Positions 1 through 12,900 of a stretch of DNA of 12,900 nucleotides are shown piece after piece. A program made the position numbers and the translations under genes. The number at the start of each line of letters is the position of its first letter. The stretch's first letter is position 1. The DNA is from a virus. Below the pieces are notes generated by a model. The model was not told where the DNA came from and searched no databases. It worked only from the letters and a program-made list of their open reading frames with translations. The stretch lies in the UHGV virus genome UHGV-0200016. One strand, 5' to 3'.

Positions 1-852
1 GTTTTCAAATTGTTCCGGACTGAGGCCGCCACACCAACTGTGCCGCCGCCACCGATTGTAATCACATTCGATATAATTAAACACCGTTGCCCGCATTATT
101 TCCCGGCTGATAAAGTGTTCTCCATGGATACATTCCACTTTCAGCGAATGAAAGAAGCTTTCCACGCAGGCATTATCGTAGCAGCAACCTTTTGCGCTCA
201 TACTTCCACGCAGATTATGCCGCTTCAGTTGCGCCTGATAATCTGCTGAACAGTACTGGCCTCCACGGTCCGTGTGAACGATAACGTTCCGGGGCCTCTT
301 ACGCCGCCACAGCGCCATCTGCAGGGCATCGCAGGCCAGTTGCGCCGTCATGCGTGGCGACATTGACCAGCCAATAACGGCACGTGACCACAGGTCAATG
401 ACCACTGCCAGATACAGCCAGCCTTCATCTGTACGTAAGTACGTGATGTCTCCTGCCCACTTCTGGTTCGGGCCACTGGCGTAAAAATCCTGCTCCAACA
501 GATTTTCTGACACAGGCAGGCCGTGTGCGCGGTAGCTGACCGGGCTGAACTTCCGGGAGGCCTTTGCCCTCAGTCCCTGACGGCGCAGGCTTGCCGCCAC
601 GGTTTTTACGTTAAAGGGGTAACCCTGAGCACGCAGTTCATCCGTCAGGCGTGGGGCACCGTAACGCTGTTTTGACCGGGTAAAAGCCGCGAGGACAACG
701 CTGTCGCAGTGTTGGCGGAACTGCTGACGCGTGCTTATCCTTGTCCGCCGCTGACACCACGTATACCAGCCGCTGCGGGCCACCCGGAGCACGCGGCACA
801 TTGCTTTGATGCTGAACTCAGCCTGATGTTTTTCAATAAAGACATACTTCAT
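1..852 (-). CDS. insF: IS3 transposase OrfB (InsF), 3'-partial (last few codons and stop lie before position 1)
   Basis: Minus-strand translation from the ATG at 852-850 gives [22 protein letters not shown]... and runs to ...[10 protein letters not shown] at the window edge, matching IS3 InsF as I recall it. It overlaps the orfA stop as expected for the -1 frameshift arrangement. It is absent from the ORF track because no stop lies in the window. Confidence 0.9.
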
Positions 853-1148
853 TTCAGGCGCTTCGCGAAGTATGTCGCGGCCTTTTGGAGGATAGCCAGC
901 TCTTCATCCCGTTCTGCCAGCTGGCGTTTGAGACGTGCAATCTCGGTAGACATCTCCAGTTCACGTTCAGAAGACGTCTGCTGATTTTGCTGTTTACTGC
1001 GCCAGTTGTAGAGCTGTGATTCATACAGGCTGAGTTCACGGGCTGCGGCAGTAACACCGATGCGTTCAGCAAGCTTCAGGGCTTCACTGCGAAATTCAGG
1101 CGAATGCTGTTTACGGGGTTTTTTACTGGTTGATACTGTTTTTGTCAT
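849..1148 (-). CDS. insE: IS3 transposase OrfA (InsE), 99 aa
   Basis: ORF track 849..1157 (minus) gives [34 protein letters not shown]...[15 protein letters not shown]. The canonical protein begins at MTKTVS (ATG at 1148-1146); the track begins at an upstream GTG. HTH-type IS3-family OrfA. Confidence 0.9.
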
Positions 1149-1269
1149 GTGAGTCACCTCTGACTGAGAGTTTACTCACTTAGCCGCGTGTCCACTATTG
1201 CTGGGTAAGATCAGGATTCTATCGATGTGGTCAATGGAAGACGGTTACCAGAGATAGGGCTTATGCATA

Positions 1270-1296
1270 AAAAAATAAGCCCGTGTAAGGGAGATT
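1270..1296. other. attL core (P2 att core, 27 bp)
   Basis: Exact 27-mer AAAAAATAAGCCCGTGTAAGGGAGATT, identical to the copy at 11555-11581, lying 80 bp from the integrase stop. It matches the P2 att core as I recall it. Confidence 0.75.
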
Positions 1297-1375
1297 TAGG
1301 GTGTCACCAGTAGGGGCTTTCAACGGTACAATGCGGGTTTGAGCGGCATAAATTACCACTGAAAGCCCTTAAACG

Positions 1376-2389
1376 TTACTCTACTGTGGACACTGTGTGG
1401 ACACTCTCGACCTCAGTACCACCTCTTAGCGGATTAAGAGAAATGGCGTCCTGAAGGTACTCTGGCGCAAAATGAGCGTAAACCATAGTTTGCTCAATCC
1501 GCGTGTGACCTAGTATCCGTTGTAGCGTGATAATACTTCCTCCATTAATCATGAAATGAGTGGCAAAGCTGTGCCTTAGTGCATGTGTAGCTTGCCCCAT
1601 TGGCAAATCCGGTTTTATTGCTTTCATTGTTCGTCTGAAGCGAGGGTAATCAGCATCAGGGAATAAAAAACCTCGTTTGTTATCCGCGATCATTTTGGCA
1701 ACAGCCTCTGAGATCGGGACGGTGCGTGGTTTGTTTGTTTTCGTTTTAACAAACGTGACGCGGTTATGGATGATATTTTCTGCTTTCAAACGAGCTGCTT
1801 CTCCCCAACGTGCTCCAGTACTCAGGCAAAGAATCGCAATCTTTTTGTTGTCGCCGTCAAGAGCAGCAAGCAGTAAGGCAATTTCTTCCTGCGTGAGATA
1901 GCCTGTGTCTGGTTTTTCCTCCTTAAGCCTTTTTGTCCCTCTGATAGGGTGCTCACCAAAGAATAACTCCGCTTCAATCAGGGCTGTAAACATGCCGCTA
2001 ATACATGTTAAATCACGATTGATACTCGAAGGTTTAATACCCTGACTTCTTCGGGTGGCGCAGTACTGGCTGATAAGCGATTTCGTAATTTGAAATGCGC
2101 ATGGGTCATTCGTTATTTTTGTGAAGATTTCAATTTTCCCAAGATTAGATTTCCCATGCTCTTCGTGTTTACCCTTTAAATCCCACCAGATCTGTGTCAG
2201 CTCCGACAGACGTCGCTTGTCTGTTGGTTTTGATAGCCATTCTTTATTGTGGTGGTTGTACAACGTGTATTTCTCGAAAGCGACAGCTTCGCTTTTCTTA
2301 TCAAACTTCCTACGGATGCGTTTTCCATTACGTCCAGTAGGGCGGATGTCCACTTCATATCGACCATCATCGAGTTTTTTGATTGCCAT
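1376..2389 (-). CDS. int: P2-type tyrosine integrase, 337 aa
   Basis: ORF track 337 aa: MAIKKLDDGRYEVDIRPTGRNGKRIRRKFDKK ... HALRHSFATHFMINGGSIITLQRILGHTRIEQTMVYAHF. It carries the tyrosine-recombinase R..HxxR..Y box and is close to residue-for-residue my recollection of P2 Int. Confidence 0.95.
   Translation of the reverse strand: MAIKKLDDGRYEVDIRPTGRNGKRIRRKFDKKSEAVAFEKYTLYNHHNKEWLSKPTDKRRLSELTQIWWDLKGKHEEHGKSNLGKIEIFTKITNDPCAFQITKSLISQYCATRRSQGIKPSSINRDLTCISGMFTALIEAELFFGEHPIRGTKRLKEEKPDTGYLTQEEIALLLAALDGDNKKIAILCLSTGARWGEAARLKAENIIHNRVTFVKTKTNKPRTVPISEAVAKMIADNKRGFLFPDADYPRFRRTMKAIKPDLPMGQATHALRHSFATHFMINGGSIITLQRILGHTRIEQTMVYAHFAPEYLQDAISLNPLRGGTEVESVHTVSTVE
1385..1404. promoter_or_regulatory. 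Tandem TGTGGACAC direct repeats; probable Int arm-type binding sites (P arm), inside the 3' end of int
   Basis: tgtggacac at 1385-1393 and 1396-1404, 11 bp apart. A matching pair with the same spacing lies on the other arm at 11496-11514. P2 Int arm sites are, from memory, direct repeats of roughly this consensus. Confidence 0.5.
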
Positions 2390-2504
2390 CAGAAAACCCT
2401 CCGAGTGGTGTGTTTTTTTGCGACTACTAATCGCTTTTTTCGTGGTGGCTGAAATTTAGCCACCAATAGTAGGCACTTGTGATGAATATATTCACGATGA
2501 ATTG

Positions 2505-2804
2505 TTAACCAGTCTTTTGACCGGAGTGGGGCGACGTTGTTTCGTTTTGCCCAAAGTGTGCGAGAGCGGGCGCAATTTGCCCGGACTCAGGAGCGATCTG
2601 ATTGGTCATGAACCATAAAGTGTATTTGGTGAATTGTGGGGTCTGCAGGATGTTCATCATGACATCTGTTGGAGGTGTTGAACGACCACTTTCATAGTAA
2701 CTCAGCGTGCCATACGGAACCCCTGTTAAATCAGCAAGTTGTTGTCTGCTCAAATACTCTGATTTTCGCATTAAGACTATCTTCTCGCTTATCGTGTTTG
2801 ACAT
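2505..2804 (-). CDS. C: P2 immunity repressor C, 99 aa
   Basis: ORF track 99 aa: MSNTISEKIVLMRKSEYLSRQQLADLTGVPYGTLSYYESGRSTPPTDVMMNILQ... It has an HTH, sits between int and cox and is divergent from cox, as in P2. Confidence 0.9.
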   Translation of the reverse strand: MSNTISEKIVLMRKSEYLSRQQLADLTGVPYGTLSYYESGRSTPPTDVMMNILQTPQFTKYTLWFMTNQIAPESGQIAPALAHFGQNETTSPHSGQKTG

Positions 2805-2918
2805 GGTGTTTAGATCTCAATAGTATTTAGTTTAGATGTAGATTGTTTAGTGCTTGGATGTGGGCACTAAAAGGCATTATAAGACATTAAACGCAATTCA
2901 TGAGGGCTAGAGGACGAC
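2805..2918. promoter_or_regulatory. P2 Pc/Pe divergent promoter and operator (lysogeny/lysis switch) region
   Basis: A 114-bp AT-rich intergenic region between divergent C and cox start codons, containing reiterated TTTAG elements (tatttagtttagatgtagattgtttagtg, 2823-2852). Exact operator boundaries not determined. Confidence 0.5.
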
Positions 2919-3527
2919 ATGAGCAAGCAAGTAACACTCATGACTGATGCGATTCCTTATCAGGAGTTCGCAAAACTAATAGGAAAATCGACAGGAGCGG
3001 TTCTCGGCGCGCGTCATATTCATATCACCAGAACGACGGACTGGCGCATTGTTCCGAAAGTTCCGGTCGTGGAGCCTTTAACTTTAAAAAGCGGCATCGC
3101 CGCGCCTCGGAGTCCTGTCAATAACTGTGGAAAGCTCACCGGTGGTGATACTTCGTTACCGGCTCACACACCTTCTGAGCACGCCGCAGCAGTGCTTAAT
3201 CTGGTTGATGACGGTGTTATTGAATGGAATGAACCGGAGGTCGTGAGGGCGCTCAGGGGGGCATTAAAACACGACCTGAGAACACCAAACCGTCAGCAAA
3301 GAAACGGAAGCCCGTTAAAACCACATGAAATTGCACCATCGGCCAGACTGACCCGGTCGGAAAGAATGCAAATTACCCGTATCCGCGTTGACCTTGCTCA
3401 GAACGGTATCAGGCCGCAGCGATGGGAGCTTGAGGCGCTGGCGCGTGGCGCGACCGTAAATTATTACGGGAAATCTTTCAATTATCAGGTCGCTGATGAG
3501 TGGCCTGGATTTTTGTTACCCATTTGA
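2919..3527 (+). CDS. cox N-terminus (about 28 codons) fused in frame to an unrelated 174-codon reading frame, possibly the 3' part of an early/replication gene; probable deletion product
   Basis: ORF track 202 aa. The first 28 residues, MSKQVTLMTDAIPYQEFAKLIGKSTGAV, match P2 Cox (a 91-aa protein). From about nt 3003 the sequence departs completely (LGARHIHITRTTDW...) and continues to 3527. SD agagga lies upstream of the ATG. Confidence 0.6.
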   Translation: MSKQVTLMTDAIPYQEFAKLIGKSTGAVLGARHIHITRTTDWRIVPKVPVVEPLTLKSGIAAPRSPVNNCGKLTGGDTSLPAHTPSEHAAAVLNLVDDGVIEWNEPEVVRALRGALKHDLRTPNRQQRNGSPLKPHEIAPSARLTRSERMQITRIRVDLAQNGIRPQRWELEALARGATVNYYGKSFNYQVADEWPGFLLPI

Positions 3528-3786
3528 GTAAAAATGCAGCGTGATTTTATATGCCTTTGAATGGATTATGCGAAGCGCCTCTAAGGCAGATGAGGAGCAA
3601 TAGCATGCTGAAGTAGAAGGCTAAATTGTATTGAATCGCTAGCATGTAATTTAAAGCAGCTATTTGATTCGAGTCATAAAAGAGCATCTATTTCGGCTAA
3701 TAAAACCATTGCGAGTGACCTTTTGTCGAAGCATAATTCATCTCGAGCGAAGTCTTGCTAGTCTTTCATCGGAATGATGACAGGCG

Positions 3787-3817
3787 CAAAAAAACCACCC
3801 TGGCAGGTGGTTTTTTT
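3787..3817. terminator. Bidirectional rho-independent terminator
   Basis: aaaaaaaccaccctggcaggtggttttttt: a GC-rich hairpin (ccaccctg/caggtgg) flanked by an A-run on the 5' side and a T-run on the 3' side, so it is terminator-like on both strands. Confidence 0.6.
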
Positions 3818-3829
3818 GTTTGAAGCATA

Positions 3830-3943
3830 CTAAAGAATAATACTTACATGGATATTACTGACGTTTACTGACAAACCACTTGGACTACCATATGGATAGC
3901 CAAAGAGGGCCAGAACGAGAATGCAGTAATAGCACTTCTTCAT
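3830..3943 (-). CDS. Hypothetical small hydrophobic protein, 37 aa (below ORF-track cutoff)
   Basis: Minus-strand ATG at 3943 preceded by a strong SD (caggaggagat-ATG). Translation is MKKCYYCILVLALFGYPYGSPSGLSVNVSNIHVSIIL, with stop at 3832-3830 immediately followed by the terminator at 3787-3817. Coding status is unproven. Confidence 0.3.
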   Translation of the reverse strand: MKKCYYCILVLALFGYPYGSPSGLSVNVSNIHVSIIL

Positions 3944-4518
3944 ATCTCCTCCTGTAAGCAGAGGGCAATTTCCGCCGATATATGCGCTTCTAAGGCGGAG
4001 TTACTATTTAGCGAAGTCTTGCCCTGAAATAATGCTCTGTTTAAACGCAAAGTGATCTGGCATATCACCGAACAGAGAGCCTGAACAACACAACATATAG
4101 TATGTCGTTGTTTCTGGTTGCATTTTATGTTGTGTAATCCTGGTTTTGCATCAAGGATGTTTGAGCTTTTTTTGATATAGCTCAAAGTAAAAAGCAGAGA
4201 CTACGGATGATAAGGTATTGAAAGCAATGTAAATTTTTTAAAGTTATTGGCGGCTAAAAAATGCACGGTTTCAATATGGTGGACTTAAATAAGCAATTAA
4301 AAAAGTCATAAATATCACTAAAATCATGGTGTTACGTTTTTTTTGTGGGAGCTGCGGTGACGCTTAAGTTGATTTGTCATTAAATAAGCCGTGCATGCAA
4401 CAAGTGAATGTTTTTGCATGCGTCGGGGATGCCCGTTCCGGCTGCTTGCGGTCAGAGCTGGTGCGGATCCATAGTATCTATGCAACTGCATTAAAACCGC
4501 CACATGAAGCGGGCGGGC

Positions 4519-4537
4519 GAGGCGGGGAAAGCACTGC
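4519..4537. other. P2-type cos site (19-nt cohesive-end sequence)
   Basis: ggcgaggcggggaaagcac matches the P2/186 cohesive-end sequence as I recall it. It sits in a GC-rich island of about 165 bp (roughly 4380-4545) between AT-rich segments. Confidence 0.6.
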
Positions 4538-4694
4538 GCGCAAAATGTTCTTGAAATATTTGTGACATAAGCTAAGACACAAAATGATTGAAGGGCAGAG
4601 CAAATCCTACAGTCCTATGCTATTGTCTCATGTAATGCAGATAAGTTGAAAATTATCTTAAAATATAAGAGTAAAGACATTAAAAGGATTGGTT

Positions 4695-6956
4695 ATGAAT
4701 AATAACTCTAAGTTATTAAGCTCTATCTCGGTTGAATCTGATTTCGAGAACCTTATAAAACTATATGCAAATGAGTTATTTGGTGGTGAAACATATCTGA
4801 TCGGTGGTCCTTGGGATAATGGAAAGGATTTGGTAATAAAAAAGGGGAATAGAGAGTTAAAGCAAGCTGTACAAATATCTATTCAAGAGAAAAATATTGA
4901 AAGTAAGATTGCTCAAGATATTAAAAAAGTGGCGAAATTGGTTGATGATCATTATTACCCGCCTGTATTATATTTTTTTTGGAGTCATTCAATATCTGAG
5001 CATTTATTGGATAAGATAAGAACAAATGCTCTTAAGGAAGATTTGATTAGATTGGAGTTTTATGATGCCAAACGGATCTCTCAAGATATTACAGATAAAT
5101 ACCCAGGGTTATTGAATTACTTAATAAAAGATATACATAAGATAAGTTCTAATACTGAAGATGCAATTAACTTGCAACAAAGAGCATTTTATGAATATTT
5201 ATTGTTAAGCAAAGATAGTGCTAATTTAAAAAATGAAATAATAAAAGCTAGTATTATGTCTAATTTATATGATGGCGGGAAGTCTGCTGATGATATTCTA
5301 GAGAATCTAAAAGGTGTTAGTCTTACAAAACGTAGTTTACAGGGTAGACTGCAAAACCTAATTCATCAAAATAAAATTAGATTGAATGATGGTATATATA
5401 GCCTGTCACCAGAGGAAATTAAAAAGCTTGAGAATATAAATCTCCGTGAAATTGTCAGAAAAGAAGAGTTGTTATCAGTAATAAATAATGAGTTGCCCAG
5501 AAATACAAGTAAGAATCTGGCTGTTCAAGTTGTTGATTTAATAATAAAGGCTTATGAAGAATCAATAAATGTCCAATTAACAGAAAGTAAATTTGAGCCT
5601 CCAAAATTACAGATATTCAAAACTATAGTACATAATTTAAAGGTGTTGATACGGCAGGAATATGATTTGGATGATGAGTCTTCGGATGCTTTAGCAAAAA
5701 AGCTAATGGAGTTGGCTGGTCAAAATGACTATTTATCCGAGCATTGCTCTGCTAAATTATGTGTGAATCTTTTAAGTGATCGGAAATTAGAGAAATATAT
5801 TGAAAATAAAAATTTTTATATCTACTTTGATGCGCCTGTTCTTATTCCATATTTGATAACTCTTATGTTTGGAGATTTTGAGCTTTTTGATAAGTCGATT
5901 AAAAATATAAATTTACTGAGAGAGTGCATAAATCCCCTCAAAAATAAACATCTGAGAGTTTCTAATGAACATTTTGAAGAAACTGCAAGGCACTACTCTG
6001 AAGCTGAAAAATTAAGTCAGTTTGTAACTGAAGATTTAATTAGTCAACTTGGTGAGTCGAAAAATGTATACTTTAATGTTTATATGCGGTGGAAAAACAA
6101 ACAGCCTAAACGTACAGATTTTTACGATTTTACTTATGCTTTTCTAGGGTTGGATAAAGATGATATTTATGCGGGGTATAAGCATGACACATTTGCGCAA
6201 TGCATTCATAATTTACTAGCGTCAGCAAATATTGTTGTAATTGATAATAAAGACTCGGTGTCACAAGACTTTGTATTTAAAATAAAGCAAAAACTTAAAA
6301 GGGATTTGAATTCTTCACGTCCCGTTCGAGCCATAGAAAATGATGTTATATGTGCTGCAACTTTGAGTGATGAAACCCTACATCTTGATTCCAATGGTTA
6401 CTTCAGTACTCCCATGCTAATAACGCTTGATAGATCTCAATATCTATTGAGAAGCATAGTAAGAAATGAAAGGAGACATGCTGAATGGTTGGTTTATACC
6501 CCTCAAAGAGCAATTGAACGTCTTTCCTTGGTGGGTTTAAAAATATCATCGGAATCGTTAAAGGATGGTGTTTTAGCAACCATATCAGAAGAATATTTCT
6601 TTAAAGAAAGTTCCAGTAGTTTGATTGATACTTTGGCTATTATCATTGGAGATAATCAAGCAAGGCAAGGAGATGTTATTAGGCTTGCATCGCTTTTAAA
6701 AAGAAAGGTCAATGAGGAATCTATTGAGAATTCAGAAATTGATATTGAACACTATAATAACATTAGTTATGTGCTTCTTTTCATTCATCGTGAATTTAAA
6801 TCTGAATTTTCAAATATAATAAAAATTTTTGCTGAGGATAGTAGGCGAGATAAACTGGTTGAAGTTTTGTTATCCACTATTCAAGGAGTTTTTGATGAGA
6901 GTAAAAAGGAAATCTTGCGCTCAAATATAGGACGGTTGTTGGCTGAAATGGGATGA
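4695..6956 (+). CDS. Hypothetical protein of about 753 aa with an N-terminal restriction-endonuclease-like (Mrr-type) motif; candidate anti-phage defence protein
   Basis: ORF track 4689..6956 (755 aa from a TTG). I prefer the ATG at 4695, which has SD aagga 6 nt upstream. The gene is strongly AT-rich and Lys/Asn/Ile-rich, unlike the flanking P2 genes. Residues about 25-100 (FENLIKLYANELFGGETYLIGGPWDNGKDLVIKKGNRELKQAVQIS...PVLYFFWSHSIS) resemble the Mrr catalytic-core pattern. A hairpin terminator follows at 6973-7005. Confidence 0.85.
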   Translation: MNNNSKLLSSISVESDFENLIKLYANELFGGETYLIGGPWDNGKDLVIKKGNRELKQAVQISIQEKNIESKIAQDIKKVAKLVDDHYYPPVLYFFWSHSISEHLLDKIRTNALKEDLIRLEFYDAKRISQDITDKYPGLLNYLIKDIHKISSNTEDAINLQQRAFYEYLLLSKDSANLKNEIIKASIMSNLYDGGKSADDILENLKGVSLTKRSLQGRLQNLIHQNKIRLNDGIYSLSPEEIKKLENINLREIVRKEELLSVINNELPRNTSKNLAVQVVDLIIKAYEESINVQLTESKFEPPKLQIFKTIVHNLKVLIRQEYDLDDESSDALAKKLMELAGQNDYLSEHCSAKLCVNLLSDRKLEKYIENKNFYIYFDAPVLIPYLITLMFGDFELFDKSIKNINLLRECINPLKNKHLRVSNEHFEETARHYSEAEKLSQFVTEDLISQLGESKNVYFNVYMRWKNKQPKRTDFYDFTYAFLGLDKDDIYAGYKHDTFAQCIHNLLASANIVVIDNKDSVSQDFVFKIKQKLKRDLNSSRPVRAIENDVICAATLSDETLHLDSNGYFSTPMLITLDRSQYLLRSIVRNERRHAEWLVYTPQRAIERLSLVGLKISSESLKDGVLATISEEYFFKESSSSLIDTLAIIIGDNQARQGDVIRLASLLKRKVNEESIENSEIDIEHYNNISYVLLFIHREFKSEFSNIIKIFAEDSRRDKLVEVLLSTIQGVFDESKKEILRSNIGRLLAEMG

Positions 6957-6972
6957 TTTCTTGGTTATTGAA

Positions 6973-7005
6973 CGGCACTATGGTCGTTGCTTATAGTGCC
7001 GTTTT
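6973..7005 (+). terminator. Rho-independent terminator downstream of the AT-rich gene
   Basis: cggcactat-ggtcgttgctt-atagtgccg followed by tttt: a 9-bp stem with an 11-nt loop, 17 bp after the stop codon. Confidence 0.55.
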
Positions 7006-7047
7006 AAGGTGTCGTGCCATTATGAATGGCATATCCGAGTTTATATA

Positions 7048-8082
7048 TTAGGTATCGCAAGTATCTAGTGAGTAGTTTTTAAAGCGGATGACCTCCTGAC
7101 CGAGCCAGCCGTTTATCTCGCGGATCCTGTCCTGTAACGGGATAAGCTCATTGCGGACAAAGACCTTTGCCACTTTCTCAATATCGCCCAGTGACCCGAC
7201 GTTCTCCGGCTTGCCGCCCATCAACTGAAAGGGGATGCGGTGCGCGTCCAGTAGGTCAGCGGCGCTGGCTTTTTTGATATTAAAAAAATCGTCCTTCGTT
7301 GCGACTTCACTGAGCGGGATAATTTTAATGCCGTCGGCTTTCCCCTGTGGGGCATAGAGAAACAGATTTTTAAAGTTGTTGCGGCCTTTCGACTTCACCA
7401 TGTTTTCGCGGAGCATTTCGATATCGTTGCGATCCTGCACGGCATCAGTGACGTACATGATGTATCCGGCATGTGCGCCGTTTTCGTAATACTTGCGGCG
7501 GAACAGCGTGGCCGACTCATTCAGCCAGGCAGAGTTAAGGGCGCTGAGATATTCCGGCAGGCCGTACAACTCCTGATTAATATCCGGCTCCAGCAGGTGA
7601 AACACGGAGCCGGGCGCGAAGGCTGTCGGTTCGTTGAAGGACGGCACCCACCAGTAAACATCCTCTTCCACCCCACGGCGGGTATATTTTGCCGGTGAGG
7701 TTTCCAGTCTGATGACCTTACCGGTGGTGCTGTAACGCTTTTCCAGAAACGCATTACCAAACACCAGAAAATCCAGCACAAAGCGGCTGAAATCCTGTTG
7801 TGAAAGCCACGGATGCGGGATAAATGTCGAGGCCAGAATATTACGTTTGACGTAAATCGGTGAGCTGTGATGTACGGCAGCACGCAGGCTTTTTGCCAGA
7901 CCGGTAAAGCTGACCGGTGGCTCATACCATCTGCCGTTACTGATGCACTCGACGTAATCCAGAATGTCACGGCGGTCGAGTACCGGCACCGGCTCACCAA
8001 AGGTGAATGCCTCCATTTTCGGGGCGCTGGCGGTCATTGTTTTTGCCGCAGGTTGCGGTGTTTTCCCTTTTTTCTTGCTCAT
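7048..8082 (-). CDS. Q: P2 portal (capsid portal) protein Q, 344 aa
   Basis: ORF track 344 aa: MSKKKGKTPQPAAKTMTASAPKMEAFTFGEPVPVLDRRDILDYVECISNGRWYEPP... It matches my recollection of P2 gpQ in sequence and length, and its start overlaps the stop of the upstream P fragment (TGATG). Confidence 0.9.
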   Translation of the reverse strand: MSKKKGKTPQPAAKTMTASAPKMEAFTFGEPVPVLDRRDILDYVECISNGRWYEPPVSFTGLAKSLRAAVHHSSPIYVKRNILASTFIPHPWLSQQDFSRFVLDFLVFGNAFLEKRYSTTGKVIRLETSPAKYTRRGVEEDVYWWVPSFNEPTAFAPGSVFHLLEPDINQELYGLPEYLSALNSAWLNESATLFRRKYYENGAHAGYIMYVTDAVQDRNDIEMLRENMVKSKGRNNFKNLFLYAPQGKADGIKIIPLSEVATKDDFFNIKKASAADLLDAHRIPFQLMGGKPENVGSLGDIEKVAKVFVRNELIPLQDRIREINGWLGQEVIRFKNYSLDTCDT

Positions 8083-8360
8083 CAGTAAAACTCCAGAATG
8101 GTGGATGTCAGCGGGGTGCTGATACCGGCGGTGAGTGGCTCATTTAACAGGGCGTGCATGGTCGCCCAGGCGAGGTCGGCGTGGCTGGCTTCCTCGCTGC
8201 GGCTGGCCTCATAGGTGGCGCTGCGTCCGCTGCTGGTCATGGTCTTGCGGATAGCCATAAACGAGCTGGTGATGTCGGTGGCGCTGACGTCGTATTCCAG
8301 ACAGCCACGGCGGATAACGTCTTTTGCCTTGAGCACCATTGCGGTTTTCATTTCCGGCGT
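8082..8360 (-). pseudogene. P: 3' fragment of terminase ATPase gene P (about 90 C-terminal codons); the 5' part is deleted
   Basis: A minus-strand open frame ends at 8082 (...LTAGISTPLTSTILEFY) with its stop overlapping the Q start, as for P2 P-Q. P is about 590 aa in P2, so only the 3' end is present. Assignment rests on synteny and coupling, not on confirmed homology. The upper boundary is approximate. Confidence 0.5.
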
Positions 8361-9245
8361 GTACCCGCACCGGATGTGGTCGAGGAGCTGGACTTTGAAA
8401 CCATTCTTGCCGAACGCAAGGCGACACTGATTTCCCTTTACCCGGAAGACCAGCAGGAGGCGGTCGCCCGTACCCTGACGCTGGAATCTGAGCCTCTCGT
8501 CAAACTGCTGGAGGAAAATGCTTATCGTGAGCTTATCTGGCGTCAGCGTGTGAATGAGGCCGCACGGGCGGTGATGCTGGCCTGTGCTGCCGGTAATGAC
8601 CTTGATGTGATTGGTGCCAATTACAACACCACGCGCCTGATTATCACCCCGGCAGATGATTCGACTATCCCGCCGACACCGGCAGTGATGGAGTCTGACA
8701 CCGATTACCGGCTGCGTATTCAGCAGGCGTTTGAAGGTTTAAGCGTCGCCGGGTCGGTGGGTGCCTATCAGTATCATGGCCGCAGTGCCGACGGGCGTGT
8801 CGCGGATATCTCTGTCACCAGTCCGTCTCCGGCCTGTGTCACCATCTCTGTGCTGTCACGTGAAAATAACGGTGTCGCTTCCGAAGACCTGCTGGCGGTG
8901 GTGCGTAACGCCCTTAATGGCGAGGACGTCAGGCCGGTGGCCGACCGCGTGACCGTGCAGTCTGCCGCCATCGTTGAATACCAGATAAACGCCACGCTGT
9001 ATCTTTACCCTGGTCCCGAAAGCGAACCCATTCGCGCTGCCGCCGTGAAAAAACTGGAAGCGTATATCACGGCACAGCACCGGCTGGGGCGCGACATCCG
9101 TCTGTCTGCCATTTATGCCGCTTTGCATGTGGAAGGCGTACAGCGTGTCGAACTGGCTGCACCGCTGGCCGACATCGTGCTCAACAATACGCAGGCGTCT
9201 TTCTGTACCGAATACCACGTCGTGACCGGAGGCTCGGATGAGTGA
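8361..9245 (+). CDS. J: Baseplate assembly protein J, apparently missing its first roughly 10 codons and its native start and promoter
   Basis: ORF track 8154..9245. From VPAPDVVEELDFETILAERKATLISLYPEDQQEAV... onward it matches P2 gpJ as I recall it. The 70 codons upstream in frame (MHGRPGEVGVAG...) are antisense to the P fragment and are not J-like. Confidence 0.75.
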   Translation, partial: VPAPDVVEELDFETILAERKATLISLYPEDQQEAVARTLTLESEPLVKLLEENAYRELIWRQRVNEAARAVMLACAAGNDLDVIGANYNTTRLIITPADDSTIPPTPAVMESDTDYRLRIQQAFEGLSVAGSVGAYQYHGRSADGRVADISVTSPSPACVTISVLSRENNGVASEDLLAVVRNALNGEDVRPVADRVTVQSAAIVEYQINATLYLYPGPESEPIRAAAVKKLEAYITAQHRLGRDIRLSAIYAALHVEGVQRVELAAPLADIVLNNTQASFCTEYHVVTGGSDE

Positions 9246-9849
9246 TTCGCGACTGCTGCCGACCGGCTCATCACCGCTTGAGGTCGCCGCCGCAAAAGCC
9301 TGTGCGGAAATTGAAAAAACGCCGGTCAGTATTCGTGAGTTGTGGAACCCGGACACCTGCCCGGCAAATCTGCTGCCGTGGCTGGCGTGGTCATTTTCGG
9401 TTGACCGCTGGGATGATAAGTGGCCGGAAGCGACAAAACGCGCTGTTATCCGCGATGCGTATTTCATTCACTGCCATAAGGGCACTATTGGTGCGATTCG
9501 CCGTGTGGTGGAGCCACTCGGCTATCTGATTGAGGTGAGGGAGTGGTGGCAGCTCAACGAGGAGCCGGGGACGTTCCGTATCGTTGTCGGCGTGCTTGAG
9601 CAGGGTATTACCGAGGAAATGTATCAGGAGCTGGAGCGCCTCGTTGCTGATGCAAAACCGGCAAGCCGCCATCTGACGGGACTGGCTATCAGTTTAAGTA
9701 CAACCGGCAACATTTTTGCCGGTGCGGGATGCTATCACGGCGACGCCCTGACGGTTTATCCCTACACCCCGGAGGCCATTATTGTCGGAGGGGATTATTT
9801 CCCGGCCTCGGCCATTCATTTAATTGATAACCTGAGAGTAAACGCATGA
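9238..9849 (+). CDS. I: Baseplate protein I (P2 gpI-like), 203 aa
   Basis: ORF track 203 aa: MSDSRLLPTGSSPLEVAAAKACAEIEKTPVSIRELWNPDTCPANLLPWLAWSF... The ATG overlaps the J stop (ATGA) and the stop overlaps the next gene's start, giving the J-I-H order of P2. Confidence 0.85.
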   Translation: MSDSRLLPTGSSPLEVAAAKACAEIEKTPVSIRELWNPDTCPANLLPWLAWSFSVDRWDDKWPEATKRAVIRDAYFIHCHKGTIGAIRRVVEPLGYLIEVREWWQLNEEPGTFRIVVGVLEQGITEEMYQELERLVADAKPASRHLTGLAISLSTTGNIFAGAGCYHGDALTVYPYTPEAIIVGGDYFPASAIHLIDNLRVNA

Positions 9850-11153
9850 CAGTGAAATACTACGCCATTCTGACTAATCAGGGCGCAGCACGGCTGGCTA
9901 ACGCGACGATGCTCGGCAGTAAGCTGAATCTGACGCAAATGGCCGTTGGTGATGCGAATGGTGTATTACCGACACCAGACCCGGCACAGACAAAACTGAT
10001 TAACCAGAAACGCATTGCACCGCTGAATATTCTGAGCGTTGACCCTAACAATCAGAGCCAGATTATTGCGGAGCAAATTATCCCTGAAAACGAGGGAGGA
10101 TTCTGGATCCGTGAGATTGGGCTTTATGATGATGAAGGCGTACTCATTGCGGTGGCGAACTGCCCGGAAACGTACAAACCGCAGTTGCAGGAAGGCAGTG
10201 GTCGTACCCAGACTATCCGCATGATTCTGGTTGTCACGAATACCGAAGCTATTACGCTGAAAATCGACCCGTCGGTGGTACTGGCGACCCGTAAATACGT
10301 GGATGATGAAGTCCTGGAATTAAGGCTGTATGTGGATGAACAGATGAGAAACCACATTGCCGCACAGGATCCTCATACCCAGTATGCACAGAAACATAAT
10401 CCGACATTTACCGGAGAACCAAAAGCGCCGACGCCTGCCGCAGGAAATAACACCACGCGGATTGCGACCACTGCGTTTGTACAGGCTGCTATTACCGCTC
10501 TGATTAACGGCGCGCCAGCCACGCTGGACACACTGAAAGAAATTGCCGCGGCCATTAACAATGACCCGAAATTCAGCACCACCATTAACAATGCGCTGTC
10601 AGGTAAGCAGCCACTGGATGAGACGCTGACTCATTTGAGTGGAAAGGATGTTGGAGCCTACACCGGCGTAACGGCAAAGTGGTTACACACCAAAGACCCG
10701 AAGCCGCAAAAGCAGAAGGTAAAACTGAAACGCAAAAAGAAAGAGAAACACCTGCGCGCACTGGAGCACCCGAAAGCGAAACCGGTCAGGCAGAAGAAAG
10801 CGCCAAAAGTACCGGAAGCGCGCGAAGGTGAATACATGGCCGGTGAGGCTGACAACGTTTTTGCCCTGACCACGGTATATGCCACGAAAGCACAGGCCAT
10901 GCGTGCTGCTCAGGCGAAGTGGGATAAACTGCAACGGGGCGTTGCGGAGTTCTCCATCATCCTGGCTACCGGTCGTGCAGATATTTACACGGAAACACCG
11001 GTCAGAGTGTCAGGCTTTAAGCGCGTCATAGACGAGCAGGACTGGACAATCACTAAGGTGACACATTTTCTGAATAATAGCGGCTTCACGACGTCCTTGG
11101 AGCTTGAGGTCAGGCTTTCTGATGTGGAGTACGAAACAGAAGATGATGAGTGA
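9846..11153 (+). CDS. Chimeric ORF: tail-fibre H-like N-terminal domain (about 270 aa) fused to the C-terminal part of tail protein D; deletion product
   Basis: ORF track 435 aa. The N-terminus (MTVKYYAILTNQGAARLA...GGFWIREIGLYDDEGVLIAVANCPETYKPQLQEGSGRTQT...) has the P2 gpH-type tail-fibre N-terminal signature. The C-terminus (...PVRVSGFKRVIDEQDWTITKVTHFLNNSGFTTSLELEVRLSDVEYETEDDE) is the gpD end that immediately precedes ogr in P2. A Lys-rich linker lies between. G, Z/fun, FI, FII, E, T, U and most of D are absent. Confidence 0.65.
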   Translation: MTVKYYAILTNQGAARLANATMLGSKLNLTQMAVGDANGVLPTPDPAQTKLINQKRIAPLNILSVDPNNQSQIIAEQIIPENEGGFWIREIGLYDDEGVLIAVANCPETYKPQLQEGSGRTQTIRMILVVTNTEAITLKIDPSVVLATRKYVDDEVLELRLYVDEQMRNHIAAQDPHTQYAQKHNPTFTGEPKAPTPAAGNNTTRIATTAFVQAAITALINGAPATLDTLKEIAAAINNDPKFSTTINNALSGKQPLDETLTHLSGKDVGAYTGVTAKWLHTKDPKPQKQKVKLKRKKKEKHLRALEHPKAKPVRQKKAPKVPEAREGEYMAGEADNVFALTTVYATKAQAMRAAQAKWDKLQRGVAEFSIILATGRADIYTETPVRVSGFKRVIDEQDWTITKVTHFLNNSGFTTSLELEVRLSDVEYETEDDE

Positions 11154-11234
11154 TGTTTTGTTTTTATCTGTTTGTTTTATAAGGATAAATTAACTAAAAT
11201 GGCACCATTAACAAAACCGGAAGAGGTGCTCGCG

Positions 11235-11453
11235 ATGTTTCATTGTCCTTTATGCCAGCATGCCGCACATGCGCGTACAAGCCGCTATATCACTGACACG
11301 ACAAAAGAGCGTTATCACCAGTGCCAGAACGTGAATTGCAGCGCCACGTTCATCACTTATGAGTCGGTACAGCGATACATCGTGAAGCCGGGAGAAGTCC
11401 ACGCCGTGAGGCCGCACCCGTTGCCGTCAGGGCAGCAAATTATGTGGATGTAA
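11235..11453 (+). CDS. ogr: P2 late-gene transcriptional activator Ogr (zinc-finger), 72 aa
   Basis: MFHCPLCQHAAHARTSRYITDTTKERYHQCQNVNCSATFITYESVQRYIVKPGEVHAVRPHPLPSGQQIMWM with the C-x2-C...C-x4-C zinc finger. The ORF track begins 21 codons upstream (11172), but the canonical start is the ATG at 11235. Confidence 0.9.
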   Translation: MFHCPLCQHAAHARTSRYITDTTKERYHQCQNVNCSATFITYESVQRYIVKPGEVHAVRPHPLPSGQQIMWM

Positions 11454-11464
11454 TTACAAACAGA

Positions 11465-11490
11465 AAGCCCCTCAGTCGAGGGGCTTTTTT
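11465..11490 (+). terminator. Rho-independent terminator of ogr
   Basis: aagcccctc-agtc-gaggggctt followed by tttt, 12 bp after the ogr stop. Confidence 0.7.
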
Positions 11491-11495
11491 GTCGA

Positions 11496-11514
11496 TGTGG
11501 TCAATGTGTGGACG
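11496..11514. promoter_or_regulatory. Direct repeats TGTGGTCA / TGTGGACG; probable Int arm-type binding sites (P' arm)
   Basis: tgtggtca at 11496-11503 and tgtggacg at 11507-11514, 11 bp apart, mirroring the pair at 1385-1404 on the int-proximal arm. Confidence 0.45.
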
Positions 11515-11554
11515 TGACCAGAAATAAATCCTTTTATTTCAATTTGTTGTACGT

Positions 11555-11581
11555 AAAAAATAAGCCCGTGTAAGGGAGATT
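11555..11581. other. attR core (P2 att core, 27 bp)
   Basis: Exact copy of AAAAAATAAGCCCGTGTAAGGGAGATT, followed by AT-rich non-phage DNA leading into the convergent host gene. Confidence 0.75.
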
Positions 11582-11725
11582 ACACAGGCTAAGGAGGTGG
11601 TTCCTGGTACAGCTAGCATTTTATGGGTTATGTTTTTCAGCGAAACGGATGATAACCTTAATAAATGCAGCTGTATGTGATCGGTTTCTAAGAATTTTCC
11701 ATCCGGGAAAAATAATCGAAATTAA

Positions 11726-12900
11726 TCACTTACCGTGTGGGTTACGCGTGGTTTCCCCGGAGAAATTACGCATCAGCAGAGCGTAATTGAGCTCAAGATC
11801 CTGCGGGACCGGGAGCCACACAGTATAACCATCGCCTGGTGCGACCGGCATCGCTTCACCTTTGGCGTTTTCCATGTGCTCAAGGGTAAAGTTAATGTTG
11901 CCTTGCGGCGTCATCAGCTCAAGGCTGTCGCCAACGGAGAATTTATTTTTCACCGCTACCGCCGCGAGGTCCCCCTTGCGCTCACCGGTAAACTCACCAA
12001 CAAACTGCTGGCGGTCAGAAACTGAATAACCGTATTCGTAGTTCTGATAATCGTCGTGAGTATGACGACGCAGGAAACCTTCGGTATAGCCACGATGCGC
12101 CAGACCTTCCAGAGTTTCCAGCAGGCTGGTATCGAACGGTTTGCCCGCAGCGGCGTCATCGATAGCTTTACGGTAAACCTGTGCGGTGCGTGCGCAATAG
12201 TAGAAAGATTTAGTACGGCCTTCGATTTTCAGCGAATGCACGCCCATTTTGGTCAGGCGTTCTACATGGGCGATGGCGCGCAGATCTTTCGAGTTCATGA
12301 TGTAAGTGCCGTGCTCATCTTCAAACGCGGTCATATACTCGCCCGGACGCTGGGCTTCTTCGATCATAAACACTTTGTCGGTTGGCGCGCCGATACCCAG
12401 CGTCGGCTCAACATTTTGCACCGGAATCGGCTCGTACTTGTGTACGATGTTGCCAACGTCATCTTCTTTCCCTTCCTGGACGTTGTACTCCCAGCGGCAG
12501 GCGTTGGTGCAGGTACCCTGGTTCGGATCGCGCTTGTTGATATAGCCAGAGAGCAGGCAGCGACCGGAGTAGGCCATGCACAGTGCGCCGTGAACGAAGA
12601 TCTCGATCTCCATATCCGGCACCTGATTGCGGATCTCTTCAATCTCTTCCAGCGACAGCTCGCGAGAGAGGATCACGCGGGTCAGGCCCATTTGCTGCCA
12701 GAATTTCACCGTCGCCCAGTTTACGGCGTTAGCCTGCACCGAGAGGTGGATCGGCATTTCAGGGAAGTGCTCACGCACCAGCATAATCAGCCCTGGATCG
12801 GACATAATCAGCGCATCCGGCCCCATTTCCACCACCGGTTTCAGGTCACGGATAAAGGTTTTCAGCTTGGCGTTGTGCGGTGCAATGTTGACCACGACAT
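11726..12900 (-). CDS. yegQ: U32-family peptidase-like protein (YegQ/TrhP-like), 5'-partial (N-terminus beyond window end)
   Basis: ORF track 389 aa: ...EIFVHGALCMAYSGRCLLSGYINKRDPNQGTCTNACRW... contains the U32 peptidase signature (E-x-F-x2-G-[SA]-[LIVM]-C-x4-G-x-C-x-[LIVM]-S). It is convergent with ogr, as yegQ is with ogrK in E. coli K-12. Gene symbol is from recollection and synteny. Confidence 0.8.
   Translation of the reverse strand, partial: VVVNIAPHNAKLKTFIRDLKPVVEMGPDALIMSDPGLIMLVREHFPEMPIHLSVQANAVNWATVKFWQQMGLTRVILSRELSLEEIEEIRNQVPDMEIEIFVHGALCMAYSGRCLLSGYINKRDPNQGTCTNACRWEYNVQEGKEDDVGNIVHKYEPIPVQNVEPTLGIGAPTDKVFMIEEAQRPGEYMTAFEDEHGTYIMNSKDLRAIAHVERLTKMGVHSLKIEGRTKSFYYCARTAQVYRKAIDDAAAGKPFDTSLLETLEGLAHRGYTEGFLRRHTHDDYQNYEYGYSVSDRQQFVGEFTGERKGDLAAVAVKNKFSVGDSLELMTPQGNINFTLEHMENAKGEAMPVAPGDGYTVWLPVPQDLELNYALLMRNFSGETTRNPHGK

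What the first reader, a model, noticed from the sequence alone, without database searches (positions are those of the whole stretch)
1270..11581. Selectively retained module set (int, C repressor, ogr, cos, Q, cargo gene) in a roughly 10-kb P2 remnant at the yegQ locus
Seen in sequence: what survives is not random. The immunity repressor C and int remain intact, as does ogr with its terminator, the cos site and the AT-rich cargo gene, while capsid, lysis, replication and most tail functions are deleted by at least three separate junctions (cox fusion, P'/'J, H'/'D). Established knowledge: C confers superinfection immunity to P2-type phages. Inference: the remnant looks like a domesticated protection island (repressor immunity plus a candidate defence gene) rather than neutral debris. 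The intact Ogr could still respond to, or interfere with, late-gene activation of an infecting P2-like phage.
Basis: partly seen in the sequence, partly recalled or inferred. Interest (0 to 1): 0.45.

Follow-up and report, generated by a model that had tools for sequence, protein, structure and literature searches.

The report
Recently decayed P2 prophage carrying defence cargo
This is a freshly degraded P2 prophage at its usual E. coli attachment site that still carries P2's own immunity switch and an untested candidate anti-phage gene, but the evidence does not show that its surviving genes were kept by selection.

Summary
Window 1270-11581 is a 10,312-bp P2-family prophage remnant, bounded by identical 27-bp att cores, at the yegR/CyaR-yegQ(trhP) site. 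Three internal deletions (cox'/'A, P'/'J, H'/'D) leave four blocks.

What is intact:
- C plus its operator/promoter region, and Ogr, are 100% P2.
- Int, cos, the ori nick region and Q are present.
- A 753-aa AT-rich cargo gene lies between cos and Q, inside the published gpA-gpQ anti-phage hotspot.

The domestication reading is only partly supported.
- All four Ogr-dependent late promoters are deleted. Q, J, I and H'::'D are therefore promoterless debris that is still intact.
- An intact sibling prophage differs by only 2 substitutions in about 6.8 kb outside one mosaic patch. The decay is too recent for intact reading frames to show selection.
- The same cargo protein sits mostly in intact P2-like prophages, so it was inherited.
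- The architecture occurs in one clone. Only about 9 of 410 P2-immunity elements have lost cox but kept C.
- Random placement of the three deletions keeps int-C and ogr half the time. It keeps the hotspot only 6% of the time.

The cargo is predicted to combine an Mrr-like nuclease fold, a winged helix and a PIN-like domain. It matches no known defence family. Unexpectedly, independent remnants reuse the same deletion endpoints.

The parts
1..1214 (-). IS3 element, cut by the window edge. It lies outside the prophage, about 55 bp from attL.
   Evidence: PGAP annotates an IS3 family transposase here. Homology to IS-free loci resumes at window 1213-1215.
1270..1296 (.). attL core, 27 bp, identical to the P2 attP core
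1313..1410 (.). Cox binding sites and the Int P' arm of attL
   Evidence: 74/74 and 26/27 identical to P2
1376..2389 (-). int, intact, 337 aa
   Evidence: Pfam Int_N + Phage_integrase. 335/337 identical to P2 Int.
2505..2804 (-). C immunity repressor, intact, 99 aa
   Evidence: 99/99 identical to P2 C. Pfam HTH_3.
2798..2918 (.). Immunity switch: Pe, O1, O2 and Pc
   Evidence: The intergenic region is 114/114 identical to P2 and every annotated hexamer and operator is identical.
2919..3527 (+). In-frame Cox(1-30)::gpA C-terminal fusion ORF. Deletion junction 1 is at 3002-3007. The P2 ori nick position maps to about 3109.
   Evidence: Pfam Phage_Cox on residues 1-29; PHROG 'nicking at origin' on residues 29-195. 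Junction sequence. ori +-30 nt is 60/61 identical to P2.
3528..4515 (.). A-to-cos spacer. It has no P2 tin/old homology. It contains a hairpin at about 3786-3818 and a 37-aa ORF at 3830-3943 (-).
   Evidence: Shared at >=80% coverage by 148 complete genomes. No Pfam, PHROG or Rfam assignment.
4516..4534 (.). cos, the 19-nt cohesive-end sequence
   Evidence: Exact match to P2 cos; 0.01 matches expected by chance
4542..7059 (+). Cargo module. It replaces P2 nt 27-198, which hold the tQ terminator and the last 3 codons of Q.
   Evidence: Comparison with the cargo-free sibling prophage in Ecol_AZ159 and with P2
4695..6956 (+). Cargo gene, 753 aa (WP_053286240). Predicted Mrr-like PD-(D/E)xK fold, winged helix and PIN-like domain.
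7048..8082 (-). Q portal gene. The ORF is intact but its promoter (pP) is deleted.
   Evidence: Pfam Phage_portal. 340/344 identical to P2 Q. pP at P2 3016 lies in deleted DNA.
8082..8363 (-). 3' fragment of terminase gene P. Deletion junction 2 is at 8362/8363.
   Evidence: Pfam Terminase_6C. Junction sequence. The junction occurs in 1 of 5426 complete genomes.
8364..9245 (+). J baseplate gene lacking its first 8 codons; promoterless
   Evidence: P2 11317-12200. Pfam Baseplate_J.
9238..9849 (+). I baseplate gene, intact; promoterless
   Evidence: Pfam Tail_P2_I. Same protein accession as in an intact prophage.
9846..11153 (+). In-frame fusion of the tail-fibre H N-terminus to the D C-terminus. 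Deletion junction 3 is at 10651/10652.
   Evidence: Pfam Phage_tail_fib on residues 1-150 and Phage_GPD on 254-412. Junction sequence.
11172..11487 (+). ogr promoter (11172-11201), ogr (11235-11453) and its terminator (11464-11487)
   Evidence: Ogr 72/72; the -35, -10 and terminator are identical to P2
11492..11581 (.). Int P arm, IHF site and attR core (11555-11581)
   Evidence: 28/28, 33/34 and 27/27 identical to P2
11558..11643 (-). CyaR (RyeE) sRNA gene. Its 3' end overlaps the attR core.
   Evidence: Rfam RF00112, 100.7 bits against a gathering score of 47
11726..12900 (-). trhP/yegQ, the host flank
   Evidence: PGAP annotation

Best explanation
The region is a young, dead-end decay intermediate of a P2-family (Peduovirus) prophage at the yegR/cyaR-yegQ attachment site.

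How it arose. The parent was an ordinary P2-like phage with P2's immunity type. It already carried the 753-aa cargo gene in the cos-Q slot of the gpA-gpQ hotspot. In this clone, three short-microhomology deletions of about 3.7, 9.8 and 9.7 kb removed three things:
- cox to most of A, so the element can no longer excise or replicate;
- most of P through W, taking terminase ATPase, capsid, lysis, tail completion and the pP, pO and pV promoters;
- the 3' part of H through most of D, taking fibre, sheath, tube, tape measure and pF.
An IS3 also landed beside attL.

What probably still works (inferred from sequence identity, not measured):
- The C-int transcription unit and the Pe/Pc switch should give immunity to P2-immunity phages.
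- ogr keeps its own promoter.
- The cargo gene is most likely an anti-phage nuclease-type effector that the phage carried as a lysogenic-conversion gene.

What is silent wreckage: Q, J, I, H'::'D and the Cox::A fusion.

Why these pieces survive. Selection for a protection island is not needed to explain it:
1. The decay is recent.
2. Two of the four blocks are the prophage ends. The right end is protected by the adjacent CyaR gene.
3. C could not be lost while the early operon it represses was still intact.
4. The late region is about two thirds of the target.
For: - Mapping to P2 and the junction sequences.
- Immunity switch, Ogr, att, ori and cos are identical or nearly identical to P2.
- The late promoters annotated in P2 at 3016-3127, 10239-10308 and 17555-17628 all fall in deleted intervals.
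- A cargo-free but otherwise 98.8-99.6% identical intact prophage sits at the same locus in Ecol_AZ159.
- The exact cargo protein is indexed in 444 blocks of the assembly collection. Ten distinct places were shown among the 24 longest contigs read: six apparently intact P2-like prophages at this locus (L026, L028, L030-L033), one intact at another locus with a different integrase and repressor (L035), and three remnants (L029, L027, L034).
- L033 (intact) against the window: 0 mismatches in 1796 bp of the left arm. There are 19 mismatches in 5362 bp, and 17 of them cluster at 3062-3365 with alleles also seen in L035.
- L027 has an identical yegQ flank (0 of 2249 mismatches) but a different single deletion. 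The same prophage therefore decayed independently in a closely related host.
- L029 is identical to the window except for 1 base in 12,900.
- In an evenly spaced sample of 13 of the 1126 genomes with ogr-attR-yegQ, 8 hold full-length or near-full-length prophages (three judged only from the right-hand 12 kb). Four are the K-12 lineage, taken from prior knowledge to be the minimal remnant and not fetched. One is this window.
- About 9 of 410 P2-immunity C regions lack an intact cox next to them.
- Null model: int-C and ogr both survive in 51% of random placements.
Against: - The hotspot block survives only 6% of random placements, and all three modules together only 2.4%.
- Ten other independent remnants at this locus also keep int-C, a hotspot cargo and ogr while losing the late region. 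That sample was chosen by similarity to this window, so it is biased.
- Deletion endpoints recur between independent remnants far more often than chance: 7 coincident pairs against 0.25 expected, with 0 of 5000 simulations reaching 7. Deletion is therefore not a uniform random process, and selection on boundaries is not excluded.
- No expression or phenotype data exist for C, ogr or the cargo in this strain.
Confidence: 0.72

Rival explanations
1. Domesticated protection island. Selection removed the dangerous and costly lytic, replication and excision functions. It actively retains C (immunity), the hotspot cargo (defence) and perhaps ogr. The remnant is therefore a stabilised host defence locus.
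For: - Convergent content of independent remnants at the same locus. They hold SIR2, a retron-type reverse transcriptase, DUF7380, DarTG, NACHT or ABC-three-component cargos alongside int-C and ogr, and all have late-region deletions.
- Four remnants, including this one, have independent cox-to-A deletions with C kept.
- Nominal p of about 0.02-0.06 for keeping the hotspot.
[quoted passage not shown] It also reports that gpA is the core gene most often pseudogenised. It explicitly leaves domestication open (PMC13586616).
Against: - The architecture is confined to one clone.
- It differs by only 2 substitutions from an intact sibling, so there is no record of persistence.
- Promoterless Q, J and I are just as intact as the supposedly selected genes.
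- The cargo is mostly carried by intact phages.
- C kept without cox is rare, about 9 of 410.
- One remnant (NMBU-W12E19) has its SIR2 cargo split by an IS.
- K-12 is known from the literature to keep only 'D-ogr at this site; this was not fetched here.
- The comparison set is biased towards this window's content.
Confidence: 0.2
2. Helper-dependent mobilisable cassette, working like a satellite. The remnant keeps every cis site needed to be excised, replicated and packaged by a heteroimmune P2-like helper: attL/attR with arm, IHF and Cox sites, int, ori and cos. Its 10.3-kb length is inferred to be in the size range of phage P4, and three copies would approach one P2 genome length. It could therefore spread its immunity and cargo genes by transduction.
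For: att cores 27/27, arm sites intact, ori +-30 nt 60/61, cos 19/19, int 335/337. Length 10,312 bp.
Against: - No Cox.
- No homologues of P4 sid, psu, delta, epsilon or primase. The ORF list and Pfam scans show only P2 debris.
- gpA is cis-acting according to the classical P2 literature (prior knowledge, not tested here).
- The remnant was found only in one host background, with identical flanks including the IS3.
- It still carries useless J, I and H'::'D fragments.
Confidence: 0.03

Closest known systems
Bacteriophage P2 (Peduovirus P2, AF063097) prophages and their remnants at the yegR/cyaR-yegQ attachment site
   Same: Same att core, gene order and orientation. The immunity switch and Ogr are identical, and Int, Q, J and D are near-identical. 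The insertion site next to CyaR is the same. 1126 of 5426 complete E. coli genomes carry ogr-attR-yegQ here.
   Different: About 23 kb is missing through three deletions. tin/old are replaced by a 1-kb gene-poor spacer. A 2.5-kb cargo module sits between cos and Q. The tail-fibre and I alleles are not P2's.
The gpA-gpQ (cos-proximal) anti-phage hotspot of P2-like phages (Rousset et al. 2022, PMC9122126; 2026 survey PMC13586616)
   Same: The cargo lies between gpA and gpQ beside cos. The slot is empty or holds other defence genes in otherwise syntenic prophages. The protein accession WP_053286240 appears in that paper's supplementary file 6 as a one-gene 'hypothetical' entry.
   Different: No anti-phage activity has been shown for this gene. 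It matches no PADLOC, Pfam or NCBIfam model. Here the hotspot sits in a defective element.
Defective P2/P4 elements with conserved defence genes (PMC13586616) and the general pattern of lytic-gene loss in cryptic prophages (PMC7744054)
   Same: Mobility, replication and packaging genes are lost, gpA is hit, and the integrase and the neighbouring defence-type gene are kept intact.
   Different: This example can be dated as very recent against an intact sibling. It therefore says little about long-term stabilisation.
PIN-domain (VapC-like) nucleases and Mrr-type PD-(D/E)xK nucleases used as effectors in defence proteins (for example the Avs4 N-terminal nuclease)
   Different: There is no antitoxin partner and no STAND ATPase. 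The canonical (E/Q)xK lysine is not in place (Q60-I-S62, with an invariant K71 instead). No solved structure or named family shares the whole architecture.

Membership tests
P2-family prophage at the yegR/cyaR-yegQ site | Flanked by direct repeats of the 27-bp P2 att core | tested here: met
   1270-1296 and 11555-11581 are both 27/27 identical to attP
P2-family prophage at the yegR/cyaR-yegQ site | P2 gene order and homology (int, C, cox ... A, cos, Q, P ... J, I, H ... D, ogr) | tested here: met
   Collinear BLAST blocks at 93-99% identity. Pfam domains.
P2-family prophage at the yegR/cyaR-yegQ site | A complete set of essential replication, packaging, head, tail and lysis genes (a functional prophage) | tested here: not met
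   B, most of A, most of P, O through W, G, FI through U and most of D are absent
Anti-phage system of the P2 gpA-gpQ hotspot | Located between gpA and gpQ next to cos, in a slot that varies between otherwise syntenic prophages | tested here: met
Anti-phage system of the P2 gpA-gpQ hotspot | Belongs to a described defence family | tested here: not met
   No PADLOC hit at E<=1. No Pfam or NCBIfam hit. Only one PHROG hit, of unknown function, at E=0.012.
Anti-phage system of the P2 gpA-gpQ hotspot | Reduces phage plating when expressed | not testable with these tools
   Needs cloning and phage challenge
Domesticated (host-retained) prophage remnant | Persists by vertical descent across diverged host lineages | tested here: not met
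   >=80% of the window in 1 of 5426 complete genomes. P'/'J junction in 1 of 5426. Only one further near-identical genome was found.
Domesticated (host-retained) prophage remnant | Purifying selection acting since inactivation (dN/dS below 1 on retained genes, decay of the others) | tested here: inconclusive
   Only 2 substitutions separate it from an intact sibling outside a recombinant patch. Promoterless genes are also intact.
Domesticated (host-retained) prophage remnant | Retention pattern departs from random deletion | tested here: inconclusive
   int-C plus ogr survive in 51% of random placements, the hotspot in 6% and all three in 2.4%. The test is post hoc.
P4-like satellite or helper-dependent mobile element | cos plus its own integrase and att sites | tested here: met
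P4-like satellite or helper-dependent mobile element | Helper-manipulation and own replication genes (sid, psu, delta, epsilon, primase) | tested here: not met
   None found in the ORF list or the Pfam scans
PIN-domain nuclease (cargo residues ~374-610) | PIN fold with four conserved acidic residues | tested here: met
PIN-domain nuclease (cargo residues ~374-610) | Matches a curated PIN profile | tested here: not met
   No Pfam hit for the window protein. There is only a sub-threshold PIN_12 hit in a distant relative, P0189.
Mrr-type PD-(D/E)xK nuclease (cargo residues ~1-150) | Restriction-endonuclease fold with a D...(E/Q)xK catalytic motif | tested here: inconclusive

The most novel reading that the evidence does not exclude
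Two readings remain open.
1. The 753-aa cargo founds a new single-gene anti-phage family: an Mrr-like nuclease or, in distant relatives, another N-terminal domain, fused to a winged helix and a PIN-like core.
2. More novel: P2 remnants at this locus are shaped by a directed or strongly constrained pruning process. Independent lineages reuse the same deletion endpoints to the nucleotide, in P, in A near the ori nick, and in the 3' part of D. That process converges on cassettes holding immunity, hotspot and ogr.
Probability: 0.15. Interest if true: 0.6.

Novelty: new member of a known kind. Interest (0 to 1): 0.3.

Why it matters
Whether dead prophages become stable host defence loci is an open question. 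The 2026 survey of P2 and P4 defence hotspots states it explicitly.

This locus offers a natural series for that question. It runs from intact prophage to one-deletion remnant to three-deletion remnant, within nearly identical sequence. At least ten other independent remnants occupy the same site. Together these could be used to measure how fast such elements decay and whether the hotspot is protected.

On its own, this window does not answer the question.

The cargo gene is a concrete, untested candidate for a new defence family. The recurrent breakpoints suggest that prophage decay is not a uniform random process.

Tried and rejected
- Family scans of the cargo (Pfam, PADLOC, NCBIfam, PHROGs) gave nothing usable.
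- tblastn of the cargo against 50,697 phage records gave no match.
- A profile search against PDB sequences and Foldseek against PDB gave nothing significant. The AlphaFold-database fold library was not available.
The remnant differs from an intact sibling by 2 substitutions. The look-up that found the siblings selects for identical cargo protein.
- I tested whether the P' endpoint shared with AB104 reflects common descent followed by a hotspot swap. It was rejected, because 31 differences are spread along the whole Q-P' segment up to 71 nt from the junction. The shared IS3 site remains unexplained.
- Rfam and Pfam on the 1-kb A-cos spacer and its small ORFs gave only sub-threshold noise.
- The promoter scan upstream of the cargo found fewer sites than in shuffles and no convincing promoter.
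- The P4-like satellite reading was considered and rated very unlikely.


Full report
**Source and overall layout**

The window is E. coli strain 1218KP, chromosome NZ_CM173878.1 positions 1766861-1779760. The host order is yegS, yegR, IS3, the element, CyaR, trhP/yegQ.

Alignment with phage P2 (AF063097, annotation) shows a collinear but heavily deleted P2-family prophage:
- Window 1270-3007 equals P2 24356-26094: att core, int, C and the first 30 codons of cox, at 99.4% identity.
- Window 3002-3511 equals P2 29785-30294: the gpA C-terminus.
- Window 4487-4541 is the cos region, with an exact 19/19 cos at 4516-4534.
- Window 7060-8363 equals P2 199-1502: Q and the 3' end of P.
- Window 8362-9674 equals P2 11317-12629: J without its first 8 codons, then I.
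- Window 10652-11581 equals P2 23453-24382: the last 167 codons of D, ogr, and attR.

Both att cores match attP 27/27. The three junctions are real and carry 1-6 nt of microhomology.

**What is intact**

- C is 99/99 identical to P2 C.
- The C-cox intergenic region is 114/114 identical, including Pe, Pc, O1 and O2.
- Int is 335/337 identical.
- Ogr is 72/72 identical, with identical -35, -10 and terminator.
- The Int arm sites, IHF site and Cox sites are intact.
- The ori nick region inside the gpA fragment is 60/61 identical.
- Q is 340/344 identical (all).

The 'cox fusion' is an in-frame Cox(1-30)::gpA C-terminal ORF.

The P2 late promoters lie at 3016-3127 (pP and pO), 10239-10308 (pV) and 17555-17628 (pF). 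All fall in deleted intervals. Q, J, I and the H'::'D fusion therefore have no known promoter, and Ogr has no target left in cis. These useless genes are as intact as the supposedly selected ones.

cos, the cargo, Q and 'A form a single contiguous block. The remnant is four blocks, and two of them are just the prophage ends.

The right end abuts the CyaR sRNA gene (Rfam RF00112, 100.7 bits, 11558-11643). Its 3' end overlaps the attR core. ogr ends about 100 bp away, so deletions that spare cyaR will usually spare ogr.

**The cargo gene**

The cargo gene (4695-6956, 753 aa, GC about 0.31) lies between cos and Q.

An almost identical intact prophage at the same site in strain Ecol_AZ159 has only the usual 188-bp cos-Q spacer. 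The cargo module (4542-7059) therefore replaces P2 nt 27-198, including the tQ terminator and the last three codons of Q. A 71%-identical homologue occupies the same slot in an intact P2/186-like prophage of Rahnella bonaserana.

Other homologues occur in these places:
- at the end of a lambdoid prophage in Klebsiella aerogenes;
- in integrase- or resolvase-bearing islands of Vibrio and Pseudomonas.

This slot belongs to the published gpA-gpQ anti-phage hotspot beside cos (PMC9122126). The protein accession WP_053286240 appears in that paper's supplementary file 6 as a one-gene 'hypothetical' entry.

It matches no Pfam, PADLOC, NCBIfam or informative PHROG family. It also has no phage-database or PDB sequence match.

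- a winged helix (MarR/PadR, about 9.4);

D379, E429, D550 and D579 are invariant in 31 homologues, as expected for a PIN active site. The Mrr-like motif has invariant D41, D45 and Q60 but lacks the canonical lysine position.

A profile search finds 359 representatives at E<=1e-10. Most are 750-780 aa long. Some have a different N-terminal domain in place of the nuclease, with weak DUF4062 hits. Such effector swapping is typical of defence proteins (prior knowledge).

I conclude that it is a plausible but untested single-gene defence candidate.

**Is the retention selective?**

Several results argue that this cannot be concluded.

1. *The cargo is inherited.* The exact cargo protein is indexed in 444 blocks of the assembly collection. 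Ten distinct places were shown among the 24 longest contigs read:
   - Six are apparently intact P2-like prophages at this same locus (L026, L028, L030-L033).
   - One is intact at another locus with a different integrase and repressor (L035).
   - One is this remnant again (L029, 1 difference in 12,900 bp).
   - Two are other remnants with different deletions (L027, L034).
2. *The decay is recent.* The intact sibling L033 has 0 mismatches over 1796 bp of the left arm. It has 19 mismatches over 5362 bp. Of these, 17 cluster in a 300-bp patch of the gpA fragment whose alleles are shared with another phage. That leaves one synonymous change in the cargo and one change in Q. Intact reading frames therefore carry no information about selection, and dN/dS is not usable.
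3. *The same prophage decayed independently nearby.* L027 shares an identical yegQ flank yet carries a different single deletion.
4. *The architecture is rare.* It covers >=80% of the window in 1 of 5426 complete genomes, and the P'/'J junction is equally unique. The cargo DNA is also found in 1 of 5426.
5. *Intermediate remnants are a minority.* 1126 genomes carry ogr-attR-yegQ. In an evenly spaced sample of 13 of them:
   - Eight hold full-length or near-full-length prophages. Three of these were judged only from the right-hand 12 kb.
   - Four are the K-12 lineage, taken from prior knowledge to be the minimal remnant and not fetched.
   - One is this window.
6. *C kept without cox is uncommon.* Only about 9 of 410 P2-immunity C regions lack an intact neighbouring cox.
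7. *Most of the retention is unsurprising under a random model.* Placing three deletions of the observed sizes at random keeps int-C in 59% of trials and ogr in 88%. Both survive in 51%, the hotspot block in 6% and all three in 2.4%. Only the hotspot is nominally unexpected, and the test is post hoc.

Ten other remnants at this site have their own junctions: AB104, 700481, EC2001, NMBU-W12E19, FT130, LR-28, H5, H2, 18AR0366 and H1827/12.
- Wherever the left end is in view, they keep int and C.
- All keep a hotspot cargo: SIR2, SIR2 plus ATPase, a reverse transcriptase, DUF7380, NACHT or an ABC-three-component system.
- All keep ogr.
- All have lost most of the late region.
- Three of them, plus this window, have independent cox-to-A deletions.

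This matches the 2026 survey of P2 and P4 hotspots. It reports that defective elements keep near-identical defence genes and that gpA is the core gene most often pseudogenised. It leaves domestication as an open question (PMC13586616). It also matches the general loss of lytic functions in cryptic prophages (PMC7744054).

My remnant sample was chosen by similarity to this window, so it is biased. One of its cargos is split by an IS.

**Verdict**

The best explanation is a young decay intermediate of an ordinary cargo-bearing P2-like prophage.
- It most likely still confers P2-type immunity. This is inferred from complete identity of the switch.
- It may confer whatever the cargo does.
- Its content is explained by recency, by end effects, by the need to keep C while the early operon existed, and by the size of the late region.

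Domestication is possible but not shown (about 0.2). A satellite-like mobilisable reading is very unlikely (about 0.03).

**Unexpected side result**

Deletion endpoints recur between independent remnants, each time with a different partner:

| Region | P2 endpoint | Remnants |
|---|---|---|
| P | 1501 / 1502 / ~1504 | H5, this window, AB104 |
| P | 1455 / 1458 | L034, 700481 |
| A | 29940 | NMBU-W12E19, LR-28 |
| D | 23485 | H1827/12, LR-28 |
| D | 23803 / 23804 | FT130, H2 |

There are seven coincident pairs within 3 nt against 0.25 expected. None of 5000 simulations reached seven.

Common descent does not explain this. The Q-P' segments of the three strains that share the ~1502 endpoint differ by 2.4-2.8% along their whole length.

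Three of the five cox-to-A deletions end within about 110 nt of the ori nick. I could not explain this.

Noticed in passing
window 8362/8363, 3002-3007 and 10651/10652; loci L002, L011, L018-L025, L027, L034: Independent P2 remnants at this locus reuse the same deletion endpoints to within 0-3 nt, each time with a different partner. In P2 coordinates these are ~1502 (three remnants), ~1455 (two), 29940 (two), 23485 (two) and 23803/4 (two). That is 7 coincident pairs against 0.25 expected, with 0 of 5000 simulations reaching 7. Common descent is contradicted by 2.4-2.8% divergence of the adjoining Q-P' segments.
   Followed up: partly
window 3002 (P2 29785); L019 and L021 (P2 29940): Three of the five cox-to-A deletions examined have their right endpoint within about 110 nt of the gpA nick site at ori (P2 29892). 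This hints that nicking may seed these deletions.
   Followed up: no
window 11558-11643 (-): The CyaR/RyeE sRNA gene overlaps the attR core (11555-11581). Prophage integration therefore supplies the 3' end of cyaR, and deletions through the right prophage end would damage it.
   Followed up: partly
window 1-1214; L002 1410-4148: An IS3 sits about 55 bp outside attL. Isolate AB104 has an IS3 at the same position plus a second copy inside int, yet it carries a different hotspot cargo (SIR2) and a 2.4% divergent Q-P' segment.
   Followed up: partly
window 3830-3943 (-): A 37-aa ORF (MKKCYYCILVLALFGYPYGSPSG...) with a strong Shine-Dalgarno sequence lies in the 1-kb A-cos spacer. The spacer is shared by 148 complete genomes, and the ORF is called as a gene in several assemblies. 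It has no family match.
   Followed up: partly
window 3062-3365: A 300-bp patch of the gpA fragment holds 17 of the 19 differences from the closest intact sibling prophage. Many of its alleles are shared with a P2-like phage at another locus (L035). This is a recombination mosaic rather than decay.
   Followed up: yes
window 7048-7059: The cargo module supplies the last three codons and the stop codon of Q (DND changed to CDT) and removes the P2 tQ terminator. The same arrangement is present in intact sibling prophages.
   Followed up: yes
proteins P0131, P0146, P0166, P0174, P0176, P0180, P0181, P0189, P0191: Distant relatives of the cargo match only from about residue 150 onward and carry a different N-terminal domain of about 200 aa. 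Two have weak DUF4062 hits. One has a weak PIN_12 hit over the central domain. This suggests effector-domain swapping within the family.
   Followed up: partly
L001 1161-3267 (source genome, upstream of the window): An IS903B insertion splits the galactitol-1-phosphate dehydrogenase-like gene a few kb left of the window.
   Followed up: no
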